The position numbers and the translations under genes were made by a program. The notes under the pieces were generated by a model. The model ran no database searches, was not told the origin of the DNA, and worked only from the letters and a program-made list of their open reading frames with translations. 38,567 bases of DNA. Origin: a virus. Its lineage: Duplodnaviria > Heunggongvirae > Uroviricota > Caudoviricetes. The stretch is from positions 1 to 38,567 of the IMG/VR virus record IMGVR_UViG_2531839486_000019, one strand, 5' to 3'. This document shows positions 1-36,070 of this stretch, piece after piece. Within the stretch, counting starts at the first letter, position 1. The number at the start of each line of letters is the position of its first letter.

Positions 1-516
1 ATGAAATTTAAAAAATGTCTTCTGCCTGTGGCAATGTTAGCGTCATTCACTCTGGCAGGATGCCAGTCAAATGCTGACGATCATGCTGCCGATGTTTATC
101 AAACCGATCAACTGAATACCAAACAAGAAACTAAAACCGTTAATATTATTTCCATTCTTCCCGCAAAAGTTGCCGTAGACAACTCCCAAAATAAACGGAA
201 CGCACAAGCCTTCGGCGCGCTTATTGGCGCAGTCGCTGGCGGTGTTATCGGCCACAACGTCGGGTCTGGCAGCAATTCCGGAACGACGGCAGGGGCAGTT
301 GGCGGCGGAGCTGTAGGCGCGGCAGCGGGTTCTATGGTGAATGATAAAACCTTAGTGGAAGGTGTTTCTTTAACCTATAAGGAAGGCACCAAAGTGTATA
401 CCTCTACCCAGGTGGGTAAAGAGTGCCAGTTTACGACAGGTTTAGCCGTTGTTATTACCACGACGTATAACGAAACGCGTATTCAGCCAAATACCAAATG
501 TCCTGAAAAGAGCTAA
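1..516 (+). CDS. Gly/Ala-rich (glycine-zipper) lipoprotein, SlyB/YcfJ-like; probably host or prophage-flank gene
   Basis: ATG at 1; signal peptide with lipobox L-A-G-C; GAVAGGVIGH and GGGAVGAAAG glycine-zipper stretches; RBS not visible at window edge. Confidence 0.6.
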   Translation: MKFKKCLLPVAMLASFTLAGCQSNADDHAADVYQTDQLNTKQETKTVNIISILPAKVAVDNSQNKRNAQAFGALIGAVAGGVIGHNVGSGSNSGTTAGAVGGGAVGAAAGSMVNDKTLVEGVSLTYKEGTKVYTSTQVGKECQFTTGLAVVITTTYNETRIQPNTKCPEKS

Positions 517-2660: not shown

Positions 2661-3060
2661 CGTCTTTTCTCCCCGGGATCAGGTCGCGTGGATTTCCAGA
2701 ACGGTGATACAGCCAGGTACCGATACCAACAGCCACGATTGAAGAAACAAACGCCCCTGCTGAGTACGCTACCCCTTTCTCAAACATATCTGTGGTGATA
2801 CCAGGAAAAGCGGATGCAAAGCCGATGAGAAGTGTTGCTGTCGGTTTGTAGAAGAGAACTCCGCATAGGTAGCTGAGGAACGCCAGCAGTAACCGACGTT
2901 TAATCGGATACTCTACTGCTGAGGTAACAAAAATTACCGCACCAGCAAGCGAACCTAACGCCACCTCGGGAGGGACACCGACGACAACTGAAGCCATCGC
3001 ACCCAGACTAAGCCCCTGATTGAGTGACTCCGTTGTCAGCACATGTGCCATAGTGACCAC
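2647..3060 (-). CDS. membrane protein of the lysis cassette (second holin or antiholin candidate)
   Basis: 137 aa with several TM segments; stop overlaps next gene start by 14 nt; alternative start at Met4. Confidence 0.5.
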   Translation of the reverse strand: MVTMAHVLTTESLNQGLSLGAMASVVVGVPPEVALGSLAGAVIFVTSAVEYPIKRRLLLAFLSYLCGVLFYKPTATLLIGFASAFPGITTDMFEKGVAYSAGAFVSSIVAVGIGTWLYHRSGNPRDLIPGRKDDDQS

Positions 3061-3148: not shown

Positions 3149-3177
3149 TAGTCAAATTACCTTTTGGGTGATATAGT
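3149..3177 (+). promoter_or_regulatory. candidate promoter of the acyltransferase gene with operator-like dyad in the spacer
   Basis: -35-like TAGTCA (3149-3154), 17-bp spacer containing TTACC-TTTTG-GGTGA (3157-3171), -10 TATAGT (3172-3177). Confidence 0.4.
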
Positions 3178-3204: not shown

Positions 3205-4215
3205 ATGAACATGAAAACATTAAATGGATTAACTATTTTCAGGTTTGTAGCTGCGTTTTATGTATTTATATTTCACTGCAATATCAGATTCCCAGCAGAA
3301 ATTGGTGATTTTCTAAACAGAATTGTTAAGAATGGTGCAATTGGAATGACATTCTTTTTTGTTCTGTCTGGTTTTGTCATGGCATGGTCATCGCAAGGTG
3401 GGGTGAAGTCTGATTATTTTGCGCGTCGCTTAAGGAGAATTTACCCAGCGTATATTTTTATGGGATTGGTGAGTCTCCCATTTATTATTGATTTAAAGCC
3501 ACAGCAAATCGTTCCATCTTTATTAATGTTCATTACTGGAACTCAGGCATGGATACCTTCTTCATTTTCACTATGGAACTTCATTGGTTCGTGGTCGGTA
3601 TCGACTGAGCTATTTTTTTATGCAACGTTCCCTATCTTGTTCCCATTGATTAAGAAAAGACCAGGGGCCTTTCTTCTTTCATCATTGGCTGTAACTTCAC
3701 TGCTGGTTCCGTTCTCTATAATGCTTGGGAGCGGCTCACAGTTCCCTTTGTTCTATGTCAGCCCAATCCACCGGCTACCTGAGTTTATCATTGGCGTATG
3801 CGCTGGGGTTTACTTTACCAATGGGATAAGGTTATCGCGTCGCAATAGTGTTCTCCTTATTGCATTATCATTATTAACATTAACAGTAATATCAACAAGA
3901 ATGAATTCTGGGTTTATGACTATGAATTTATTCACAGTCCCAGCCACTGCCATACTCATTTTTTCTCTTGCATCTTTAAATGTGAGAGATGATGGATTAG
4001 CGGCGCTTCCCATATACTTTGGAAAAATTAGCTACTCTTTCTATTTGATGCAGATACCATTGATAATGTTTATCGAAAAATATCATTACCTGTTTAATGA
4101 TATGAATACGTTATCATGCTGGGTAGGCATGTTTATAGCTAACACAATAATGGCATGCATATCTTATCACTTCGTAGAAGAAGCCTTTATGAAAATGAAA
4201 TACCAATCCGCCTAA
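3205..4215 (+). CDS. acyltransferase family 3 membrane protein (OafA/Oac-like O-antigen acetyltransferase candidate); lysogenic-conversion cargo
   Basis: 336 aa multi-TM protein with N-terminal acyltransferase-3 signature (FRFVAAFYVFIFHC, FFVLSGFV); opposite strand to late genes; AT-rich; next to tailspike. Confidence 0.8.
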   Translation: MNMKTLNGLTIFRFVAAFYVFIFHCNIRFPAEIGDFLNRIVKNGAIGMTFFFVLSGFVMAWSSQGGVKSDYFARRLRRIYPAYIFMGLVSLPFIIDLKPQQIVPSLLMFITGTQAWIPSSFSLWNFIGSWSVSTELFFYATFPILFPLIKKRPGAFLLSSLAVTSLLVPFSIMLGSGSQFPLFYVSPIHRLPEFIIGVCAGVYFTNGIRLSRRNSVLLIALSLLTLTVISTRMNSGFMTMNLFTVPATAILIFSLASLNVRDDGLAALPIYFGKISYSFYLMQIPLIMFIEKYHYLFNDMNTLSCWVGMFIANTIMACISYHFVEEAFMKMKYQSA

Positions 4216-23492: not shown

Positions 23493-23560
23493 ATCAATGA
23501 CTCCGTACGCAATTAAATTATTACCAATTTAACCACATATGATTTATTTATCGTAGATAG

Positions 23561-23597
23561 TTGACATTTAACGCACAAATTATTACCTTTCAGGTAA
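23561..23597 (+). promoter_or_regulatory. candidate plus-strand promoter with operator-like dyad driving the tRNA operon
   Basis: perfect -35 TTGACA (23561-23566); dyad TTACC-TTTCA-GGTAA (23583-23597) over the -10 region; exact -10 hexamer ambiguous. Confidence 0.4.
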
Positions 23598-23919
23598 GCA
23601 AAGGGTTCATTCCGGTTATTAACCTGACTGGCTTGTCGTTAAATTGAACAGGTGGAGTGAGCTTTTATTTTGAGCAGTACGGCGTATGGCACATGCGCCG
23701 ATAGCGGTCTGGATACGTTTAAGGGGCACCCTCCCTTGCTCGGGCAAACGAACCAGGTAGCCGGAATGTGCAAGTCGAGCGGTTTTATTCCGCGCACGGG
23801 GATTCACCATCCCGGCGATTCGGTGTGACACCTCGGAAGAGACGAGGGTACAACGATGAGAGCATTTATGGAGCCGCGACAAAGTGTGGCGCCTTAACAG
23901 GCTAAGTGCTCTCAGCGTT

Positions 23920-26132: not shown

Positions 26133-26725
26133 TGATTACCATCCTGACGTTCTTTGAGTCGCTTCCTGGCTGCTGCTATGCGATCAGCAATTGTCACATT
26201 CACATTAACATCCAGACGTTCTTTGAACGCGTTGACATCAACATGCTTACCAATCAGCTCAAGGTTCTTCACCTTGTCCGGCCATTTGATTTTTTTGAGG
26301 ATTGTCTCTATCGAATCCTCGTTCATGTTCATGATGGTCGATGACAGATCAAAGCCGCTAAGCGTAGTGCGCCAGATTTTCGGCCACTCGCGGATTGGTT
26401 TAAGGCTCCCATCGTCGTTGAGGATGTCGATCACGTCCATCTGGTCGATCTCCACCAGGCGCATGAGAACGTAATCAGCACTGACGCGCATTCGTTTGTT
26501 GCGTTCCTCCATCAGCTCGGCAATCCGTTTCTGAATGCGTTCATCTCGCATCATGACACTGGCTTTAACTGCCGCTGTATTTGGGGAGAATCCTGCGTTA
26601 ATCGCTGCCTGAGTCTGGTTTTCAGGCGTTTTGATGTATGACTGGCAATAAGCCTCCTGCATTGCTGTTAGTGGCTTAAATTGCGTTGATTTGCGTTTAT
26701 AGGTTTTAGTTTCAGCAGGCATCAT
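26129..26725 (-). CDS. terminase small subunit
   Basis: start moved to ATG 26723-26725 (MMPAETK...); the upstream 26 track codons translate a tandem DNA repeat and are unlikely coding. Confidence 0.7.
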   Translation of the reverse strand: MMPAETKTYKRKSTQFKPLTAMQEAYCQSYIKTPENQTQAAINAGFSPNTAAVKASVMMRDERIQKRIAELMEERNKRMRVSADYVLMRLVEIDQMDVIDILNDDGSLKPIREWPKIWRTTLSGFDLSSTIMNMNEDSIETILKKIKWPDKVKNLELIGKHVDVNAFKERLDVNVNVTIADRIAAARKRLKERQDGNQ

Positions 26726-26732
26726 AACCACC

Positions 26733-26764
26733 GTGGTAATAGTTACCGTTGTGGTAATAGTACC
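26733..26764. repeat. tandem direct repeat GTGGTAATAG(T)TACC x2 immediately upstream of the terminase small gene
   Basis: copies at 26733-26747 and 26751-26764; each is itself a GGTAA...TTACC dyad. Confidence 0.6.
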
Positions 26765-29432: not shown

Positions 29433-30007
29433 TGGTTGCCTCCTTTGCGAAGCTGTTCAGCAATACTTACGCATATCTCTGCGCCTCTAATCAGCCCCGG
29501 AACGTTCTTGTTTGGCCCAACTTCACCATCAACAAAATCAATCATCGCGTTACGAGCCATATCCACGCCCTGCGCCCGTACTTCAGCCAGGAAAGCGTCG
29601 GTGGCTGGGGTGTCTGATTGCAGAGACTTTGCGCGATAGTCATTCCACCCCCTTGCATACATGGGATTAACTTGCACTCCATCTTTTACGCAATATGCCT
29701 GCCCTCCACGGTTGATAACCTTGATTTCGTCCATAGCGCCAGACTTCAGCCCCGCATTCTCCGCCGCCAGCGCCGAAAACTTCTCGTGTGCCAACTTAAC
29801 AGCCGCATCAGCCTGCTTAATTGACTCAATCGCTTTCTGCTGGTCTTCGGCCAGCTCATTAGCACGCACCAGTTGCACTTCCAGTTGCGTTGCCAAATCG
29901 CTGATCAGATTTGCCACACTGCGCATATCAACGGCACCACATTCTGCTTTCAGTTCCGAAGCCATCTCATGCCCGGCGGAAACTAACCCTTTGATATTAC
30001 TTTCCAT
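29429..30007 (-). CDS. hypothetical protein
   Basis: 192-aa ORF in the nin-like region. Confidence 0.5.
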   Translation of the reverse strand: MESNIKGLVSAGHEMASELKAECGAVDMRSVANLISDLATQLEVQLVRANELAEDQQKAIESIKQADAAVKLAHEKFSALAAENAGLKSGAMDEIKVINRGGQAYCVKDGVQVNPMYARGWNDYRAKSLQSDTPATDAFLAEVRAQGVDMARNAMIDFVDGEVGPNKNVPGLIRGAEICVSIAEQLRKGGNQ

Positions 30008-30068
30008 CTTTACCCTCGCTTATCCACATAACTTATTGATTACATTGATAACTAAAAAGATCGTCGAT

Positions 30069-30416
30069 TCAGAACTCTTCGATGTTCCAGCCGCCACCTG
30101 CTTTCTTTGGTTTAACCGTTACCCCGATGATTCGGAACGGATACTGATCTGCGGCTACTTTGGTTTTCACCCTGGCGTCGTCGGTCCAGAATCCCCCTTT
30201 CACTTCGTGCAGTTCCATCTCTCCGGTGGCGAGCATCACAGCGAAATCGGGCGTATAGAACGTGTTGTCAGCTAACCGCAGCTTGATACCCTCGAATCGA
30301 TACCAGGCGATTTCCCCTGCACGTTTACGCAGCTCAAGGTGCTGGCAATACGCAGATTCTGTTTTGTTCATCTGATCTGTTTTGAGTCGACCAAGAGCCT
30401 GTATCTGTTTTCTCAT
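30069..30416 (-). CDS. putative PD-(D/E)xK-type nuclease (small resolvase-like protein)
   Basis: YTPDF ... ELHEVKG motif spacing consistent with PD-(D/E)xK; ATG 30414-30416 with GAGGT SD lying inside dyad 30420-30434. Confidence 0.5.
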   Translation of the reverse strand: MRKQIQALGRLKTDQMNKTESAYCQHLELRKRAGEIAWYRFEGIKLRLADNTFYTPDFAVMLATGEMELHEVKGGFWTDDARVKTKVAADQYPFRIIGVTVKPKKAGGGWNIEEF

Positions 30417-30419
30417 GAT

Positions 30420-30496
30420 TTACCTCTGAGGTAATTAAAAACCACATAAGACACGAAATCAATAGATTTTAGAATATTTTATTACCTAACAGGTAA
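30420..30496 (+). promoter_or_regulatory. regulatory module between the P-like gene and nin genes: two operator-like dyads flanking AACCACATA
   Basis: TTACC-TCTGA-GGTAA (30420-30434); AACCACATA (30440-30448); TTACC-TAACA-GGTAA (30482-30496). Confidence 0.45.
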
Positions 30497-30533
30497 TTGT
30501 CGAGGCGTAAAAAAATGCGCTATCGCGCTGGTA

Positions 30534-31334
30534 TTACTTGATAAATCCTGCCGCCTTTCCTCGCCTGTATTCCTCCATCAGCCACTGCGCCGGTGTTATT
30601 CCACCAAGGGTGGCGGCGTTAGGCATGCACCCGAAACTTCGCCCTGGTGGATGGTAAACGTCTCTCCCTGTGTCCGGAGGTGTACTCATGGGTTCTGGCT
30701 TTGCCTGTATGCTGATCACCGGATCGGGTATCTGCTGTCCGGAAGCCACCTTTTTCGCCCAATCATCGAGCAGCCTGCGCGCGTGTTTCTCAACCTCAAT
30801 CTCGCTAAGCTGGCGCTGATACATTGCACGGCGGGTATCACATACGACCCAGTACATAACCGGATGTCGCCACGGGAATCTTTCGGGACCACCAGGATAT
30901 AAACTTTTTTCCTTGCTGTACCGGTTAAACTCCGCCATCACATCGTCAATGGTGACGCCAAGAACCATCTTGCTGTCTTTACACCACTTGATGAATTGCC
31001 CAGGCGACGGCCAGAACGGAGATTCACTGGCGCGGGCGTGGCGCATACCAGCAGAAACCTGTTCACGGGTTCGGATCCCCCCTTCGGCAAACGCAGCAAT
31101 CCACTGCTGTTTTGCAGCAACTTCCTGCTCTGGCGTCTTCAGGTTGGTTACCACTGCCGCCGGAAACAGTTGTTTCAGCTGTTTGAAAAGGGCATCAACA
31201 AGCCTCTCTGCTGACATGTTCACCACGTTATCATTGTTGGTGTACTGATGCTCATAACCTGACATGCGAGAAAGGGCTTCTCCGTCACGGTTTTGTATCG
31301 CGGTAAAAACGTTGTTCACAAGAAATCCTCCCAT
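30534..31334 (-). CDS. replication protein P-like (lambda P family helicase loader)
   Basis: QQWIAAFAEGGIRTREQVSAGMRHARASESPFWPSPGQFIKWCKD closely matches remembered lambda P region RQWVLAFRENGITTMEQVNAGMRVARRQNRPFLPSPGQFVAWCRE. Confidence 0.8.
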   Translation of the reverse strand: MGGFLVNNVFTAIQNRDGEALSRMSGYEHQYTNNDNVVNMSAERLVDALFKQLKQLFPAAVVTNLKTPEQEVAAKQQWIAAFAEGGIRTREQVSAGMRHARASESPFWPSPGQFIKWCKDSKMVLGVTIDDVMAEFNRYSKEKSLYPGGPERFPWRHPVMYWVVCDTRRAMYQRQLSEIEVEKHARRLLDDWAKKVASGQQIPDPVISIQAKPEPMSTPPDTGRDVYHPPGRSFGCMPNAATLGGITPAQWLMEEYRRGKAAGFIK

Positions 31335-32131
31335 GCTTCAGGGCTGTTCCAGTGCGGAACGTTGTTATCAGGTAATGTTGATTGCTTCTGTCTGCTAATC
31401 TGCAGCCTCCTTGCCAGCTTCTGCTCCCACTGTGCCTGATGGTATGCCTTACCCTCAGCCATCCAGTAAATTCTGAACTCTGCAAGTTCCTGTGCCGTTG
31501 GCAGACTGTCCAGGTAGATCCCCTGCAATGAGCTTTTCCGAAGAAAGTCATCTGATGGCTGCCATTGTTCATGCATGACAAATTTGCCTAATTGCCCTGG
31601 CCCACCAGGAGGAACAAAGTTATTCATCACGGCGTTGTTTGCGCCGGGGTCATGAGGCACAGAATCCCCGCTTTTTGTCCTGCTCTCCCTCTCTTGGTTA
31701 AATGACTGGTTATATGACTGGTTCTGGATCCCGTTTTTGGGATCATTCAACATCCCGTTTTTGGGATCATTCAACATCCCGTTTTTGGGTATATTCCCGT
31801 TTTCGGGTATATTCCCGTTTTCTGGTTCATTGCCCCCCTCCCGGTTGCCTTTAATGTTCCCGTTTTTGGTTATATTAAGAGAGAAAACCCGCACTCTTTT
31901 TGTCGCTCCCTTTCTATCTCCGGTATCTGAAATAAGCCCCATTTTCATGAGCGATATAAGCCCGGCCTGCACGGTTTTTTTATTCAGGCAAGTGTCTTTA
32001 ACGAGTCGTTCTATGCTGGGGTAGCAGAGGTTATATTCATCGGCTCTGTCAGCCATCGAGAGCAGTATGAGCTTTAATGATGAGCTGCCTGGATCTGTCT
32101 CCCAGGCCCAATCTGTTGCATGTCTGCTCAT
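31316..32131 (-). CDS. replication initiator (lambda O-like) with origin iterons inside the gene
   Basis: N-terminal HTH-like domain, central peptide repeats (NGNIPENGNIPKNGMLNDPKNGMLNDP) encoded by DNA iterons, followed by the P-like gene. Confidence 0.7.
   Translation of the reverse strand: MSRHATDWAWETDPGSSSLKLILLSMADRADEYNLCYPSIERLVKDTCLNKKTVQAGLISLMKMGLISDTGDRKGATKRVRVFSLNITKNGNIKGNREGGNEPENGNIPENGNIPKNGMLNDPKNGMLNDPKNGIQNQSYNQSFNQERESRTKSGDSVPHDPGANNAVMNNFVPPGGPGQLGKFVMHEQWQPSDDFLRKSSLQGIYLDSLPTAQELAEFRIYWMAEGKAYHQAQWEQKLARRLQISRQKQSTLPDNNVPHWNSPEAWEDFL
31703..31890. repeat. putative origin of replication: iteron array plus AT-rich tract
   Basis: ATGACTGGTT x2 (31703-31724); GGATCATTCAACATCCCGTTTTTG x2 (31741-31788) with partial copy at 31727-31740; GGTATATTCCCGTTTTC x2 (31789-31825); CCCGTTTT core six times; AT-rich 31871-31890. 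Confidence 0.65.
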
Positions 32132-32347: not shown

Positions 32348-32426
32348 GGTAAGCCCTGTTATTAGTATTGGGATTACGGTTATTTTGTGCTGACACAAAA
32401 AAAAGATCAACCAAATTTGGTTTTTT

Positions 32427-32441
32427 ATTACCTTTGAGGTG
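32427..32441. promoter_or_regulatory. operator-like dyad between the Cro-like gene and the next early gene
   Basis: TTACC-TTTGA-GGTGA; preceded by perfect palindrome AACCAAATTTGGTT. Confidence 0.4.
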
Positions 32442-32497
32442 AGAATAGATATGAAAAGACCGCCGGATGACGGTCTACAGAGGGTTGTGGCTGGATA

Positions 32498-32728
32498 TCA
32501 TGAGTAGAAGAAGTATGCCAGTTCTGCTTTTGAGCGCAGCCATTGTCTTGTTTTACAGGCTTTAAAAAGCCCATTCATCAATACCTTACCTGGCATTTTG
32601 CGCTTACCTGTTAAGTGAGTCTGGATATAGTGACTCGTCGTTCCGGCTTCCTGTGCGAAGGCTTCACGCTCATCCGGAGTAAGTGCAAGCCAGTGCTTTT
32701 TGAAATCGAAATGTCCGTTATCGCTCAT
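32498..32728 (-). CDS. Cro-like HTH regulator (YdaS/Cro family)
   Basis: 76 aa, ATG 32726-32728; HTH-like segment DEREAFAQEAGTTSHYIQTHLTGKR; divergent from the CI-like gene. Confidence 0.6.
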   Translation of the reverse strand: MSDNGHFDFKKHWLALTPDEREAFAQEAGTTSHYIQTHLTGKRKMPGKVLMNGLFKACKTRQWLRSKAELAYFFYS

Positions 32729-32773
32729 AGCTATTGCCTGATATTTATTTCAGATAATAAATATTCACCCATA

Positions 32774-32827
32774 AGGTAACAAAAATCAAGGATAGTTACC
32801 TATGGGGTGCATTTACCTGTTGGGTAA
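32774..32827. promoter_or_regulatory. right operator-like region between the divergent Cro-like and CI-like genes
   Basis: inverted repeat AGGTAAC-N14-GTTACCT (32774-32801) and dyad TTACC-TGTTG-GGTAA (32813-32827). Confidence 0.45.
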
Positions 32828-32882
32828 TATTGCTTTAAATTGAATCATCTACTGATTCATATATGAGGCGATTTTCCAGAAA

Positions 32883-33467
32883 ATGAAAAGTATCCAGGAC
32901 GTCCGCAGGCAAAATCTCAACGACTTGATCGACCGTGAATTCAATGGTGTTCAGACGCGGATGGCAGAAAAACTTGGAACTCAGGCAAATCTGGTAAACC
33001 GCTGGGCTCTTGGCAAGAAGGTTATCGGCGACCAGGTTGCGCGAAAAATTGAAGCTGCCGCCAATAAACCCCGTAACTGGCTTGATATCGATCGCTCGCT
33101 TTCTCAGGAAGGTTTTCAGCCTGTCGGCCCAAGCGACATTGGTCAGCTGGCGGCTCACAACCTGGAACGCTGGATGAGCGAAAGCCGCGACCTTTCAACA
33201 CAGGGAAAACTTCACCGCGCATCCGGCGTCGCCCAGGTGACAATCAGCCGCCTGTTAAACAATGAGGTCAGCGTTTCCATTTCCACCCTGGAGAATGTTG
33301 CATCTGCATTCGGGCGTCACGGATATGAACTACTGATTCACCCGCACGACCCTGCAACTATCAACTATGACCGCTCGCGCTACGCATTATTACCTGAAAC
33401 CGAGAAAGCAAAGATCGAAAGTTACATTGAATTTGTCATCAACCAGAACGAAAAAAACAAACAATAA
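32883..33467 (+). CDS. CI-like repressor candidate with HTH domain(s) and no recognisable LexA/S24 cleavage domain
   Basis: XRE-type HTH (GVQTRMAEKLGTQANLVNRWALGKK) and a second HTH-like stretch; no Ala-Gly/Ser-Lys peptidase motifs seen; divergent from Cro-like gene. Confidence 0.55.
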   Translation: MKSIQDVRRQNLNDLIDREFNGVQTRMAEKLGTQANLVNRWALGKKVIGDQVARKIEAAANKPRNWLDIDRSLSQEGFQPVGPSDIGQLAAHNLERWMSESRDLSTQGKLHRASGVAQVTISRLLNNEVSVSISTLENVASAFGRHGYELLIHPHDPATINYDRSRYALLPETEKAKIESYIEFVINQNEKNKQ

Positions 33468-33488: not shown

Positions 33489-33512
33489 AGCCGCCAAATG
33501 GCGGCTTTTTTT
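33489..33512 (+). terminator. rho-independent terminator after the CI-like gene
   Basis: stem agccgcc / ggcggct with aaat loop, then TTTTTT. Confidence 0.65.
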
Positions 33513-33525
33513 ATTGTCTTTTTAA

Positions 33526-33602
33526 TTACCTTACAGGTAATTTTTTTAACTCATATCTATTGACATCAAACCAAATACGCATAATTATTACCTCAACGGT
33601 AA
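33526..33602 (+). promoter_or_regulatory. pL-like early-left promoter with two operator-like dyads
   Basis: dyad TTACC-TTACA-GGTAA (33526-33540); -35 TTGACA (33560-33565); 17-bp spacer; -10 AATTAT (33583-33588) overlapped by dyad TTACC-TCAAC-GGTAA (33588-33602). Confidence 0.5.
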
Positions 33603-33621
33603 CAAGCCGAGGTAACAAGTT

Positions 33622-33774
33622 ATGCAGTGGAAAATCATCAACGGTTGGTACTGCGTTACTGCATGCGGATTCATGAGCTGGAAGTTCCGCACCTTACAGG
33701 AAGGCATTAAGTGGGCTTTCGTCAGCAAAGAAGCTCGCGATGTGGCCAACGATAACGAGATATGGGAGGGCTGA
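33622..33774 (+). CDS. hypothetical 50-aa protein, first gene of the early-left operon (not in ORF track)
   Basis: ATG 33622 with GAGGT 8 nt upstream; TGA 33772-33774; reads MQWKIINGWYCVTACGFMSWKFRTLQEGIKWAFVSKEARDVANDNEIWEG. Confidence 0.3.
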   Translation: MQWKIINGWYCVTACGFMSWKFRTLQEGIKWAFVSKEARDVANDNEIWEG

Positions 33775-34894: not shown

Positions 34895-35772
34895 GCAACG
34901 ACATCGCAATCACATCGCAGCCCGGCGCCACTGTAGGAACCGCCGCTGCAATCTTCAGCCCGGAGGGCATGAATCAACTGGTGCGCTTCGCTGATCTGAT
35001 GGCACAGAGCAAAGCCACCGTTCCGGCACACCTGGCTGGCAAGCCGGCAGACTGCCTGGCCGTGACCATGCAGGCGGCACAGTGGGGAATGAACCCTTTC
35101 GCCGTGGCGCAGAAAACGCATGTGGTAAACGGAACGTTAGGCTACGAAGCACAGTTGGTAAACGCGGTCGTATCCTCTTCCAGCCTGCTAGCGACACGCC
35201 TGAATTATCGCTGGAGCGGTGACTGGTCGAATGTTAACGGCAAAACAGATAAATCACCGAATCTGACGGTAACTGTGTCAGCAGTTCTTAAAGGAGAAGC
35301 AGAACCCCGTGAGCTTACCATCAGTATGGCGCAAGCCGGAGTGCGTAACTCTCCATTGTGGGAACAGGATCCGCGCCAGCAGCTTGCCTATCTTTGCACG
35401 AAACGATGGGCTCGCCTGCACGCTCCTGATGTACTTCTCGGTGTTTACACCCCTGACGAATTACAGGAAACGGCACCGCGCGTTGAGCGAGACATTACTC
35501 CGCAAACAACTACGGCTGCGGGAATGAATAGTCTGATCAACGCTAAAACAGTGAAAAAGCCTGATGAGCAAACGCGTAAAGCGGATAGCCGTGATCCAGA
35601 AGAAATGCTGATGGCCTTTACCAGCGCAGCGATGAATTACAGCACTGTCTCCGAACTGGATAAGGCTTACAAATACATTGCACAAAAACTTTCAGATGAT
35701 GACGAACTGCTGGCAAAAGCCACCGACGTTTACAGCGTTCGTCGGGAAGAATTAAACGAAACATCTATGTAA
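34891..35772 (+). CDS. RecT-like single-strand annealing recombinase
   Basis: 293 aa; core region (AQWGMNPFAVAQKTHVVNGTLGYEAQLVNAVV) resembles the RecT/Red-beta family; overlaps exonuclease stop. Confidence 0.65.
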   Translation: MSNDIAITSQPGATVGTAAAIFSPEGMNQLVRFADLMAQSKATVPAHLAGKPADCLAVTMQAAQWGMNPFAVAQKTHVVNGTLGYEAQLVNAVVSSSSLLATRLNYRWSGDWSNVNGKTDKSPNLTVTVSAVLKGEAEPRELTISMAQAGVRNSPLWEQDPRQQLAYLCTKRWARLHAPDVLLGVYTPDELQETAPRVERDITPQTTTAAGMNSLINAKTVKKPDEQTRKADSRDPEEMLMAFTSAAMNYSTVSELDKAYKYIAQKLSDDDELLAKATDVYSVRREELNETSM

Positions 35773-35821: not shown

Positions 35822-36070
35822 ATGAAAGGTGCATTAGGTAAGAAGGAACTCCTGGCGGTGGTGCCACTGTCATGGAGCACTATCGACCGTATGGAGCGCG
35901 CAGGGGAATTTCCTAAACGCTGGTATATCACCGATAAACGCTGCGCATGGAACCGTGACGAAGTTGAGCGTTGGCTTGATGAACGTCAAGCAGCAAGCCC
36001 GGCAGAGTTCCAGGGTAAAAAACCTCCTGTTCAGCAACGTGTATATCGTCCCGTGAGCAACGCTGCATGA
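35822..36070 (+). CDS. AlpA/excisionase-like winged-helix DNA-binding protein
   Basis: LLAVVPLSWSTIDRMERAGEFPKRWYITDKRCAWNRDEVERWLDE matches the AlpA/Xis-type HTH pattern. Confidence 0.6.
   Translation: MKGALGKKELLAVVPLSWSTIDRMERAGEFPKRWYITDKRCAWNRDEVERWLDERQAASPAEFQGKKPPVQQRVYRPVSNAA

What the first reader, a model, noticed from the sequence alone, without database searches (positions are those of the whole stretch)
30420..30533. Plus-oriented regulatory module inside the minus-strand early operon: possible antisense RNA or internal promoter
Module C lies between the P-like gene stop (30534) and the nuclease-like gene start (30416), in the same plus orientation as modules A and B, but no plus-strand protein gene follows it (only an 8-codon ORF at 30517). 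A plus transcript from here would be antisense to the 3' end of the P-like gene, similar in concept to lambda OOP RNA. Alternatively the two dyads gate expression of the downstream nin-like genes.
Basis: inference. Interest (0 to 1): 0.45.

Follow-up and report, generated by a model that had tools for sequence, protein, structure and literature searches.

The report
Repressor-controlled internal promoter cassette, minus strand
The 117-bp gap between the replication gene and the next early gene of this phiV10/epsilon15-like phage holds a terminator followed by two prophage-repressor binding sites around a promoter that points the same way as the surrounding genes; this is an ordinary regulatory cassette, not an antisense-RNA module.

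Summary
The two perfect dyads TTACC-N5-GGTAA at 30420-30434 and 30482-30496 are real. They are far above chance and are conserved with exactly 62-bp spacing in every relative examined. They match the operators at the phage's own rep/cro and PL regions, and the phage encodes a homologue of the SPC32H Rep repressor.

The claimed plus orientation is not supported. The dyads are palindromes and carry no polarity. The non-palindromic parts show that module C, read on the minus strand, is a paralogue of the PL cassette (module B) read on the plus strand. The shared order is: terminator hairpin with T-run, dyad, TATTGA (-35) at the same offset, a -10 abutting the second dyad, Shine-Dalgarno, ATG.

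A minus-strand promoter-like site in this register occurs in 78/78 unique cassettes. It has no terminator and no Rfam match.

Best reading: a Rep-repressed, co-directional internal early promoter placed just after the terminator that ends the replication genes. It would drive the DUF1064/nin-like genes.

The epsilon15 and phiV10 GenBank records already annotate the homologous repressor site and terminator. Novelty and interest are low. One by-product is unexplained: the operator centres are hypervariable.

The parts
30534..31334 (-). Lambda-P-family replication gene; its stop codon is at 30536-30534. It is the last gene of the upstream early transcription unit.
   Evidence: ORF list; Pfam PF06992, E 2.2e-56.
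30509..30528 (-). Intrinsic-terminator-like element on the minus strand: GCGC-GATA-GCGC hairpin, then A, then a T7 run. It begins 5 nt after the P stop codon.
   Evidence: Sequence. Fold -8.4 kcal/mol, 4-bp GC stem. The homologous site is annotated 'putative rho-independent transcriptional terminator' in phiV10. GCGC..AGCGC.TTTTTTTAC is >=90% conserved in 81 unique cassettes, even where the upstream gene differs. It is too short for the tool's 5-bp criterion.
30498..30503 (-). -35-like hexamer TCGACA of candidate minus-strand promoter P-a.
   Evidence: 10/12 match, 16-nt spacer. PWM score 11.8 bits, reached by 10% of shuffles. This hexamer lies in a hypervariable patch and is not conserved in relatives.
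30481..30497 (.). Upstream operator O_C2: ATTACCTGTTAGGTAAT on the minus strand (core dyad 30482-30496). It fills the spacer of P-a and lies about 60-70 bp upstream of the P-b start.
   Evidence: Half-sites are perfect in 106/106 cassettes sampled without reference to the dyads. The homologous site is annotated 'protein_bind repressor, lysogeny' in epsilon15 at 35906..35922.
30476..30481 (-). -10-like hexamer TAAAAT of P-a. It may alternatively be part of an A/T tract acting as an UP or bending element for P-b.
   Evidence: [T/C]AAAAT is conserved in all 12 aligned phages, and AAAAT is >=90% conserved in 81 cassettes. It is absent from the divergent RuvC-linked cassette type.
30457..30464 (-). 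TATTGATT on the minus strand; TTGATT is the -35 of candidate promoter P-b. It is positionally identical to the TATTGACA -35 of the PL cassette (module B).
   Evidence: Same offset (33 nt from the start of the upstream ATTACC) in modules B and C. TATTGA is at offset 17 in 165/172 cassettes. TTGAAA sits at the same offset in 5 of the 7 exceptions.
30434..30439 (-). -10-like hexamer TTTAAT of P-b, with a 17-nt spacer. It abuts and overlaps the downstream operator by 1 nt, in the same register as AATTAT in module B. It is weak because it lacks A at hexamer position 2.
   Evidence: PWM 9.3 bits in the window. This register scores >=9.3 bits in 78/78 unique cassettes: TTGATT-17-TTTAAT, or TTGAWW-18-TAAATT in other genera.
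30420..30434 (.). Downstream operator O_C1: TTACCTCAGAGGTAA on the minus strand. It overlaps the P-b -10 and start region and contains the Shine-Dalgarno sequence of the DUF1064 gene.
   Evidence: It lies exactly 62 bp from O_C2 in all 12 phages. It is perfect in 104/106 dyad-blind cassettes, and the other two have one mismatch.
30422..30427 (-). Shine-Dalgarno AGAGGT, 6 nt before the ATG at 30416-30414.
   Evidence: Sequence. The GG of the operator half-site supplies the SD in all relatives, whichever gene follows.
30069..30416 (-). DUF1064 gene, first gene served by the cassette. Some relatives carry a RuvC-like resolvase gene at the same ATG instead.
   Evidence: Pfam PF06356, E 1e-5. Replacement by a crossover junction endodeoxyribonuclease in epsilon15, Tyrion and PAT1.
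30448..30475 (+). Listed for completeness; not supported as functional.
   Evidence: 9/12 match. 8.05 bits, reached by 73% of shuffles. Present only in the E. coli subgroup; mean -5.8 bits elsewhere.
33494..33625 (+). Module B, the PL-type paralogue used as reference. Order: rep terminator, ATTACCTTACAGGTAAT, TATTGACA (-35), AATTAT (-10), ATTACCTCAACGGTAA, SD, ATG at 33623.
   Evidence: Sequence. TTGACA-17-AATTAT scores 12.5 bits. Dyads are 62 bp apart.
32883..33467 (+). Gene for the cognate repressor, a two-HTH, SPC32H Rep-type protein.
   Evidence: phmmer to PDB 5D50 (SPC32H Repressor), E 4e-42 over residues 1-190. Pfam HTH_3.

Best explanation
Module C is a minus-strand, co-directional 'terminator - operator - promoter - operator' cassette.

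Transcription from the cro-side early promoter runs through the DnaT-like and P-like replication genes. It is at least partly stopped at a short intrinsic terminator (30528-30509). Immediately downstream sits a sigma-70-type promoter on the same strand. The conserved candidate is TTGATT-17-TTTAAT (30462-30434), in the same register as the PL promoter. In this particular phage there is also TCGACA-16-TAAAAT (30503-30476). This promoter would restart transcription into the DUF1064 gene and the nin-like early genes.

Two operators for the prophage repressor (SPC32H Rep family) bracket the promoter, 62 bp apart centre to centre, about six helical turns. The downstream operator covers the -10, the start site and the ribosome-binding site. 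The upstream operator fills the spacer of the second promoter, or equivalently the UP region of the first.

In a lysogen, tetrameric Rep would occupy both sites, probably cooperatively, and keep this unit silent independently of PR and PL. When Rep is inactivated, all Rep-operated units would fire together, so genes beyond the terminator are expressed without a lambda-N-type antiterminator.

Shown: the sequence elements, their conservation, the polarity, the paralogy to the PL cassette, and the presence of the Rep homologue. Inferred: Rep binding, promoter activity, terminator efficiency and cooperativity.
For: Operators.
- 13 dyads in the window against 0.56 expected.
- The same half-sites occur at the rep/cro intergenic region (32765, 32813) and at PL (33526, 33588).
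- Rep is homologous to SPC32H Rep, PDB 5D50, E 4e-42.
- All 11 annotated relatives keep two perfect dyads exactly 62 bp apart, although their Rep proteins are only 42-78% identical to this one and the flanking genes differ.
- In a sample chosen without reference to the dyads, half-sites are perfect in 106/106 (upstream) and 104/106 (downstream) cassettes, while the central 5 bp vary freely.
- A scan requiring a non-C at one half-site position found nothing.
- The epsilon15 record annotates the homologous upstream dyad as a repressor site.

Polarity and paralogy.
- C(-) against B(+) gives 21-29/47 identities, C(+) gives 9-17, and shuffles about 14.5 +/- 2.9.
- TATTGA lies at the same offset in one orientation only in 165/172 cassettes.
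- Both cassettes follow a hairpin plus T-run and end in SD and ATG.

Promoter.
- The P-b register scores >=9.3 bits in 78/78 unique cassettes.
- It is the top minus-strand hit in 10 of the 12 aligned phages and the second in the window and Kp4865-1, where P-a scores higher.
- A divergent cassette type with a different terminator and a longer leader keeps TTGAAA at the same offset.
- The operator-in-spacer architecture of P-a recurs at 3149-3177, upstream of the acyltransferase gene.

Terminator.
- Hairpin plus U7, annotated in phiV10, >=90% conserved.
Against: - No transcript, footprint or reporter data for this site are available to me.
- Promoter-like scores of this size are not significant on their own in this AT-rich spacer: 10% of shuffles reach 11.8 bits and 47% reach 9.3 bits.
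- In the E. coli subgroup the conserved P-b -10 (TTTAAT) lacks the near-essential A at position 2. Its start site would leave only an ~11-nt leader.
- The -35 of P-a lies in a hypervariable patch and is good in only 22/78 cassettes. Which promoter fires is therefore unresolved.
- The terminator stem is only 4 bp (z -1.5) and fails the scan's 5-bp criterion, so it may be leaky.
- All relatives share the same half-sites, so a covariation test against heteroimmune operators could not be done.
- The sequences compared are related phages, not independent samples.
Confidence: 0.7

Rival explanations
1. A plus-strand promoter in module C (AAGACA-16-TAGAAT, start near 30482) makes an RNA antisense to the 3' end of the P-like gene. 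Like lambda OOP, this RNA would down-regulate the replication gene.
For: A 9/12 hexamer match exists on the plus strand. Its register is kept in most of the 30 unique E. coli-subgroup cassettes, and two carry TATAAT as the -10. The start would lie at the edge of dyad 30482-30496, so Rep could control it.
Against: - The score of 8.05 bits is reached by 73% of shuffles.
- The register scores a mean of -5.8 bits in the 48 cassettes from other genera, whereas every other element of the cassette is conserved there.
- The cassette polarity is minus.
- No terminator-like site is available to end a short RNA, and the GCGC hairpin is followed by UGGUAUUACUUG on the plus strand.
- There is no Rfam family match.
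- The -10 overlaps positions that vary within the subgroup.
Confidence: 0.07
2. The dyads are Rep sites with no local promoter function. One version is a roadblock that backs up the leaky terminator so read-through from upstream cannot reach the nin-like genes in a lysogen, in the manner of a stoperator. The other is a set of auxiliary operators that loop to the rep/cro operators 2.3 kb away and stabilise repression, as lambda OL does for OR.
For: Rep of this family is a tetramer whose tetramerization domain was likened to that of the DNA-looping repressor Rco of plasmid pLS20 and named TetDloop (PMC9986798, read; PMC9638917). Dyads are dispersed over the genome at unit boundaries: 32428 after the cro-like gene, 26725/26743 before the small terminase gene, and 23583. 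Promoter scores alone are at chance level.
Against: The inter-dyad segment is itself strongly conserved. It matches the PL promoter in register (CTATTGA, and T.TGG.T.T.AA before the second dyad), which a pure roadblock or looping site would not need. A -35 TTGA is kept at the same offset even in the divergent cassette type. The two roles are not exclusive: looping or roadblock could be an additional function.
Confidence: 0.15
3. The conserved 117-bp block is mainly a recombination 'linker' between exchangeable gene modules, conserved because it mediates mosaic exchange. On this view any regulatory resemblance is secondary.
For: The same cassette joins at least 28 different upstream and 26 different downstream sequence contexts. 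These include unrelated replication genes and either DUF1064 or RuvC-like genes that begin at the same ATG.
Against: A linker needs only sequence identity. It does not explain invariant palindromic half-sites next to saturated variation in the 5 central bp. It does not explain the fixed 62-bp phasing or the paralogy to the PL cassette. Mosaic junctions at regulatory cassettes are expected anyway.
Confidence: 0.05

Closest known systems
Annotated repressor-binding sites of Salmonella phage epsilon15 (GenBank AY150271.2) and the annotated terminator of phiV10 (DQ126339.2)
   Same: The epsilon15 feature 'protein_bind repressor, lysogeny' at 35906..35922 is the positional homologue of dyad 30482-30496. 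The phiV10 'putative rho-independent transcriptional terminator' at 35038..35057 is the homologue of 30509-30528. Epsilon15 lists 8 dispersed repressor sites, including those before terS, gp3 and the tailspike gene, matching the dispersed dyads here.
   Different: Those records do not annotate the second dyad over the ribosome-binding site. They mark no promoter here and do not note the relation to the PL cassette. The annotations are predictions, not experiments.
SPC32H Rep/Ant switch (Kim & Ryu, J Virol 2013; Kim et al., PNAS 2016; PDB 5D50/5D4Z)
   Same: The window's repressor is a homologue (E 4e-42). SPC32H carries the same cassette, with dyads at L004 2642 and 2704, 62 bp apart. Secondary sources report that Rep binds palindromic sites as a tetramer and is disassembled by an antirepressor (PMC9638917).
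   Different: I could not read the primary papers. Whether they tested this particular site is unknown to me. Rep here is only 42% identical to SPC32H Rep.
Lambda tR2 / nin region
   Same: A terminator lies directly after replication gene P and before a block of small nin-like genes that includes a recombination nuclease. The position in the early right operon is the same.
   Different: Lambda passes tR2 by N-mediated antitermination and has no repressor-controlled promoter there (established knowledge). Here a repressor-operated promoter cassette follows the terminator.
Lambda OOP antisense RNA
   Different: OOP has its own promoter and its own intrinsic terminator (established knowledge). 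Here the antisense-strand promoter is weak and not conserved, and no terminator exists.
Phage P1 C1 repressor regulon (many dispersed operators, each controlling its own promoter)
   Same: One immunity repressor controls many separate transcription units through operators scattered over the genome (established knowledge). Here there are 13 dyads at unit boundaries.
   Different: P1 operators are asymmetric 17-mers bound by a monomer. Here the sites are symmetric dyads for a tetrameric two-HTH repressor, often in pairs 62 bp apart.
Cooperative binding of lambda repressor to operators separated by 5-6 integral helical turns (Hochschild & Ptashne 1986)
   Same: Two operators about six turns apart on the same face of the helix bracket a promoter. 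The spacing is strictly conserved (62 bp in every cassette examined).
   Different: Cooperativity or looping by Rep at this spacing is inferred, not shown.

Membership tests
epsilon15/SPC32H-type Rep operator | Dyad with the same half-sites as the operators at the phage's own rep/cro and PL regions | tested here: met
   TTACC-N5-GGTAA at 30420 and 30482 equals the sites at 32813, 33526 and 33588. There are 13 sites against 0.56 expected.
epsilon15/SPC32H-type Rep operator | Cognate Rep-family repressor encoded by the same genome | tested here: met
   32883..33467 matches PDB 5D50 (SPC32H Repressor) at E 4e-42 over residues 1-190.
epsilon15/SPC32H-type Rep operator | Half-sites under purifying selection across relatives | tested here: met
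   106/106 and 104/106 perfect in a dyad-blind sample. No hits when one half-site position is forced to differ. The central 5 bp vary.
epsilon15/SPC32H-type Rep operator | Physical binding by Rep (EMSA or footprint) | not testable with these tools
   The only support is a predicted 'protein_bind' annotation in epsilon15. The primary SPC32H papers are not held.
Sigma-70 promoter on the minus strand (co-directional internal promoter) | -35 and -10 hexamers with 16-18 nt spacing | tested here: inconclusive
   TCGACA-16-TAAAAT (10/12; 11.8 bits) and TTGATT-17-TTTAAT (9.3 bits) are present. However, 10% and 47% of shuffles reach these scores.
Sigma-70 promoter on the minus strand (co-directional internal promoter) | Hexamers conserved in position across relatives and oriented toward the adjacent gene | tested here: met
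   The P-b register scores >=9.3 bits in 78/78 unique cassettes. It is in register with the PL promoter of module B. The ATG follows within 10 nt of the downstream dyad.
Sigma-70 promoter on the minus strand (co-directional internal promoter) | Mapped transcription start | not testable with these tools
   No transcript data were found in the literature searches.
Intrinsic (rho-independent) terminator | GC-rich hairpin immediately followed by a U-run on the transcribed strand | tested here: inconclusive
   GCGC-GATA-GCGC, A, then U7 on the minus strand. Fold -8.4 kcal/mol, z -1.5. The stem is only 4 bp, so the scan did not call it. It is conserved at >=90% and annotated in phiV10.
Lambda OOP-type cis-antisense RNA | Functional promoter on the strand antisense to the target gene | tested here: not met
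   8.05 bits, reached by 73% of shuffles. Not conserved outside the E. coli subgroup, where the mean is -5.8 bits.
Lambda OOP-type cis-antisense RNA | Own intrinsic terminator defining a short RNA | tested here: not met
   No terminator-like site on either strand in 29900-31000. The plus-strand hairpin lacks a U-run.
Lambda OOP-type cis-antisense RNA | Match to a curated RNA family | tested here: not met
   Only snoR12 at 24.1 bits against a gathering score of 39, E 0.11.
Mycobacteriophage L5-type stoperators | Asymmetric, orientation-dependent sites inside transcribed regions without an associated promoter (established knowledge) | tested here: not met
   The sites here are symmetric dyads in intergenic cassettes with promoter-like elements.

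The most novel reading that the evidence does not exclude
The 'terminator - operator - promoter - operator' unit is a portable cassette, present twice in opposite orientation (PL and post-P). It serves as the standard junction between exchangeable gene modules in Uetakeviruses. Its non-contacted positions (the operator centres and the outer flank) evolve much faster than neighbouring sites, including synonymous ones. This could reflect diversifying selection on operator strength, for example partial escape from a resident homoimmune repressor. It could instead reflect a site-specific mutational process at repressor-bound or hairpin-forming palindromes.
Probability: 0.2. Interest if true: 0.5.

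Novelty: new member of a known kind. Interest (0 to 1): 0.2.

Why it matters
It corrects the orientation and meaning of the element. It suggests that early transcription in phiV10/epsilon15-like phages is organised as several terminator-bounded units, each with its own repressor-operated promoter. That differs from one long operon read through by an antiterminator, as in lambda. This is useful for annotating these common E. coli, Salmonella and Klebsiella prophages and for engineering them. It is not surprising to a phage specialist, because the homologous operator and terminator are already annotated in reference genomes. The one open point is the strong excess of variation in the operator centres.

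Tried and rejected
- Rfam scan of 29900-31400 at a permissive threshold: only a chance snoRNA hit.
- Terminator scan for an end to a plus-strand RNA: none found.
- Covariation test with heteroimmune relatives: not possible. Every Rep homologue in the phage collection down to 42% identity uses the same TTACC/GGTAA half-sites, and the more distant hits cover only one HTH domain.
- Primary literature on epsilon15 and SPC32H operators: PMC2698709, PMC4983836 and PMC3807360 are not held. The vB_EcoP_ZX5 paper predicts four promoters but gives no operator detail.
- Deciding between the two minus-strand promoter candidates by PWM score: rejected as a stand-alone argument, because shuffles of the spacer reach similar scores. 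Only positional conservation discriminates.
- mRNA structure sequestering the SD in the dyad hairpin: the fold of 30470-30400 is not better than shuffles (z -1.2). Not pursued.
- Reading the small plus-strand ORF (8 codons) as a gene: rejected. It merely spans the complement of the terminator.

Full report
**What the window is.** The region is 97-98% identical to Escherichia phages phiv142-3, PAS61 and phiV10 (genus Uetakevirus, epsilon15-like temperate podophages).

The finding lies between two minus-strand genes. One is a lambda-P-family replication gene (30534..31334; Pfam E 2e-56). The other is a DUF1064 gene (30069..30416).

Upstream on the same strand lie a DnaT-like gene and a small cro-like gene (32498..32728). 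The divergent gene 32883..33467 encodes a two-HTH repressor homologous to the Rep repressor of Salmonella phage SPC32H (PDB 5D50, E 4e-42).

**Check of the observation.**
- TTACC-N5-GGTAA with at most one mismatch occurs 13 times in the window against 0.56 expected. No shuffle out of 100 reaches 13.
- The other copies sit in the rep/cro intergenic region (32765, 32813) and in front of the leftward operon (33526 and 33588, also 62 bp apart).
- Further copies lie after the cro-like gene (32428), before the small terminase gene (26725, 26743), and at 23583, 6641 and 3157.
- The gene boundaries, the 8-codon plus ORF and the plus-strand hexamer pair AAGACA-16-TAGAAT are all present.

**Orientation.** The statement that module C has 'the same plus orientation' as module B does not hold. 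Palindromes carry no polarity, so orientation must come from the rest of the cassette.

Read on the minus strand, module C has this order: GCGC-GATA-GCGC hairpin and T7 run; ATTACCTGTTAGGTAAT; 16 nt; TATTGATT; 17 nt; TTTAAT abutting ATTACCTCAGAGGTAA; ATC; ATG.

Module B read on the plus strand has this order: GCCGCC...GGCGGC hairpin and T7 run; ATTACCTTACAGGTAAT; 16 nt; TATTGACA; 17 nt; AATTAT abutting ATTACCTCAACGGTAA; SD; ATG.

Three tests support the minus polarity.
- In eight phages where both cassettes have 47-nt inter-dyad segments, C(-) shares 21-29 of 47 positions with B(+). C(+) shares 9-17, and shuffles give about 14.5 +/- 2.9.
- An IMG/VR scan for two perfect dyads 62 bp apart, together with the loci already fetched, gave 172 cassettes. 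TATTGA lies at inter-dyad offset 17 in one orientation only in 165 of them.
- Five of the seven exceptions are a divergent cassette with a different terminator and a RuvC-like gene downstream. It still has TTGAAA at the same offset.

In every class the polarity points at the gene that starts just after the second dyad. Module C is therefore co-directional with the minus-strand early operon.

**Are the dyads repressor sites?** All 11 annotated relatives fetched keep two perfect dyads exactly 62 bp apart at this position. They are phiV10, epsilon15, Tyrion, SPC32H, BUCT554, three Klebsiella prophages or phages, BUCT711, PAT1 and TL-2011b. This holds although their Rep proteins are 42-100% identical to this one. 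It also holds although the upstream gene (lambda-P type or other replication proteins) and the downstream gene (DUF1064 or RuvC-like resolvase) differ.

I then chose cassettes without reference to the dyads, using the frame GCGCATTTTTTTAC-N41-CTATTGA, and obtained 106 unique sequences.
- The upstream half-sites are perfect in 106/106.
- The downstream half-sites are perfect in 104/106; the other two have one mismatch.
- The same frame with one half-site C forced to be another base finds nothing.
- The five central base pairs vary almost freely.

The epsilon15 GenBank record annotates the homologue of the upstream dyad as 'protein_bind, repressor, lysogeny', along with seven other dispersed sites. 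The phiV10 record annotates the homologue of the hairpin as a rho-independent terminator. I could not read the primary papers. Secondary sources say SPC32H Rep binds palindromic sites as a tetramer (PMC9638917). Its tetramerization domain has been likened to that of the DNA-looping repressor Rco and named TetDloop (PMC9986798).

**Promoters.** The consensus scan reports one minus-strand candidate, TCGACA-16-TAAAAT (30503-30476; 10/12), with the upstream dyad exactly filling the spacer. It also reports the plus-strand candidate AAGACA-16-TAGAAT (9/12).

With a simple PWM these score 11.8 and 8.05 bits. A third site, TTGATT-17-TTTAAT on the minus strand (30462-30434), scores 9.3 bits and is in the register of the PL promoter. 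None of these scores is significant alone: 10%, 73% and 47% of shuffles of the 117-bp spacer reach them.

Conservation discriminates between them.

| Candidate | Strand | Result across 78 unique post-replication-gene cassettes |
|---|---|---|
| PL-register site (P-b) | minus | >=9.3 bits in 78/78 (TTGATT-17-TTTAAT, or TTGAWW-18-TAAATT) |
| Spacer-operator site (P-a) | minus | >=9 bits in 22/78; its -35 lies in a hypervariable patch |

P-b is also the top minus-strand hit in 10 of the 12 aligned phages. It is second in the window and in Kp4865-1, where P-a scores higher.

Two weaknesses of P-b in this phage must be stated. Its -10 lacks the A at position 2. Its start would leave an ~11-nt leader. 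In this window P-a is the better-looking promoter, and the same operator-in-spacer layout recurs at 3149-3177 before the acyltransferase gene. I therefore commit to 'one or both minus-strand promoters' and not to a single start site.

**Terminator.** On the minus strand, 5 nt after the P stop codon, GCGC-GATA-GCGC is followed by A and U7 (-8.4 kcal/mol; z -1.5). The stem is short and the scan's 5-bp rule misses it. However, the element GCGC..AGCGC.TTTTTTTAC is >=90% conserved in 81 unique cassettes with varying loops and with different upstream genes. On the plus strand the same hairpin is followed by UGGUAUUACUUG, so it cannot end a plus transcript.

**Most likely mechanism.** Early rightward (here minus-strand) transcription is stopped or attenuated after the replication genes. 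A Rep-operated promoter immediately restarts it into DUF1064 and the nin-like genes. In the lysogen, Rep occupies the two operators. One covers the -10, the start site and the SD. The other lies six helical turns upstream. Because Rep is tetrameric and the spacing is invariant, binding is probably cooperative. When the antirepressor disassembles Rep, this unit fires together with PR and PL.

The same 'terminator then dyad' logic is seen after the cro-like gene (32428) and before the small terminase gene (26725/26743). This suggests a genome built of terminator-bounded, individually Rep-controlled units, which would not need a lambda-N-type antiterminator. Rep binding, promoter activity, terminator efficiency and cooperativity are inferences.

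**Rivals.**
- The OOP-like antisense RNA fails the tests for a conserved antisense promoter, an own terminator and an RNA family. I give it about 0.07.
- A pure roadblock or long-range looping role gets about 0.15. Module C lies about 2.3 kb from the rep/cro operators. This role cannot be excluded and may coexist with the promoter role. It does not explain the conserved, PL-like inter-dyad sequence.
- A recombination-linker role gets about 0.05. The mosaic flanks are real, but they do not explain invariant half-sites beside saturated centres.

**Comparison with known systems.** The element works like a secondary repressor-controlled early promoter. The genome-wide pattern resembles the dispersed C1 operators of phage P1 in logic, although not in site type. 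Its position after gene P corresponds to lambda tR2, but lambda solves that terminator by antitermination. The six-turn operator spacing recalls the classical cooperative binding of lambda repressor at integral turns.

As to membership, it meets the testable criteria for a Rep-family operator pair. It meets the comparative criterion, but not the statistical one, for a sigma-70 promoter. It is a marginal intrinsic terminator. It fails the criteria for an OOP-type antisense RNA and for L5-type stoperators.

**Novelty and score.** The homologous operator and terminator are already annotated in reference genomes. The additions here are the second operator over the ribosome-binding site, the minus polarity, the paralogy to the PL cassette and the conserved promoter register. 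I rate it a new member of a known kind, interest 0.2.

One by-product deserves a note. Among 30 closely related E. coli-group cassettes, mean per-site entropy differs sharply by position.

| Segment | Mean per-site entropy (bits) |
|---|---|
| Central 5 bp of the upstream operator | 1.17 |
| 9 nt just outside the upstream operator | 0.56 |
| Centre of the downstream operator | 0.61 |
| 214 nt of adjacent P coding sequence | 0.044 |
| Terminator | 0.00 |

I have no tested explanation for this excess of variation.

Noticed in passing
window 30487-30491, 30498-30506 and 30425-30429; same pattern in module B 33516-33524 and 33531-33535: Hypervariable patches. Among 30 unique, otherwise near-identical E. 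coli-group cassettes, the central 5 bp of the upstream operator has 20 variants (mean entropy 1.17 bits per site). The 9 nt outside it has 0.56 bits, the adjacent 214 nt of P coding sequence 0.044, and the terminator 0. Rep is 98.5-100% identical to this phage's Rep in the annotated E. coli-group phages; across these, e.g. the window, phiV10 and TL-2011b, the centres nevertheless differ, so the variation does not track repressor changes. Possible causes are diversifying selection on operator strength, hairpin-loop mutagenesis, or conversion among operator copies.
   Followed up: partly
window 3149-3177 (dyad 3157-3171), upstream of the acyltransferase gene 3205..4215 (+): A promoter-like TAGTCA-17-TATAGT (10.2 bits) has a one-mismatch Rep-type dyad exactly filling its spacer. 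It sits in front of an Acyl_transf_3 gene (Pfam E 1e-27), presumably the O-antigen-modifying lysogenic-conversion gene. A repressor site in the promoter of a gene expected to be on in lysogens is odd. Rep might act differently there, or the site may be weak.
   Followed up: no
window 26725-26757 (minus strand), just upstream of the small terminase start: Two adjacent dyads 18 bp apart (ATTACCACAACGGTAAC and TATTACCACGGTGGTTA on the minus strand) lie between a terminator hairpin (GCCGCCAACTATGGCGGC plus a T-rich tail) and the ATG of the small terminase gene. The arrangement is conserved in BUCT554, PAT1 and TL-2011b and is annotated as a repressor site in epsilon15 (12..27). This suggests direct Rep control or roadblock at the entry to the late/packaging genes.
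   Followed up: partly
window 23513-23618 (dyad 23583-23597): This is another intergenic dyad inside the minus-strand structural operon. The plus strand has TTGACA-17-TACCTT (13.2 bits). The minus strand has a degenerate cassette-like tail, TATGTGGTTAAATTGGTAAT, then SD and ATG. The homologue is annotated as a repressor site, with an overlapping IHF site, in epsilon15 (2931..2947). Orientation and function are unresolved.
   Followed up: partly
window 32411-32497 (dyad 32428-32442): After the cro-like gene there is a terminator hairpin (GACCGTCATCCGGCGGTC plus T4) followed by a single one-mismatch dyad and an A/T-rich stretch, ahead of a small gene and the replication genes. It follows the same 'terminator then Rep site' logic as module C, but no convincing promoter match was found (best 6.6 bits).
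   Followed up: partly
module C homologues in loci L002, L003, L010 versus L001, L004-L009: The cassette is a mosaic junction. The gene starting at the shared ...GGTAAATCATG is either DUF1064 or a RuvC-like resolvase. The gene ending before the shared terminator is lambda-P-like, DnaT-like or another replication protein. Among 81 unique cassettes there are 28 upstream and 26 downstream sequence contexts.
   Followed up: partly
locus L102, around 347-423: An apparently unrelated viral contig carries at least five TTACC-N5-GGTAA dyads clustered around TTGACA-[dyad]-TATATT, ahead of a strong GGAGG ribosome-binding site and a TTG start. The same operator type may therefore be used outside the Uetakevirus group.
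   Followed up: no
window 32729-32882 (rep/cro intergenic region): The switch region has three dyad-like sites (32765, about 32797 with two mismatches, and 32813) spaced 32 and 16 bp apart. The epsilon15 record annotates no repressor sites in its equivalent region, although perfect dyads are present there (L002 6118, 6135).
   Followed up: no
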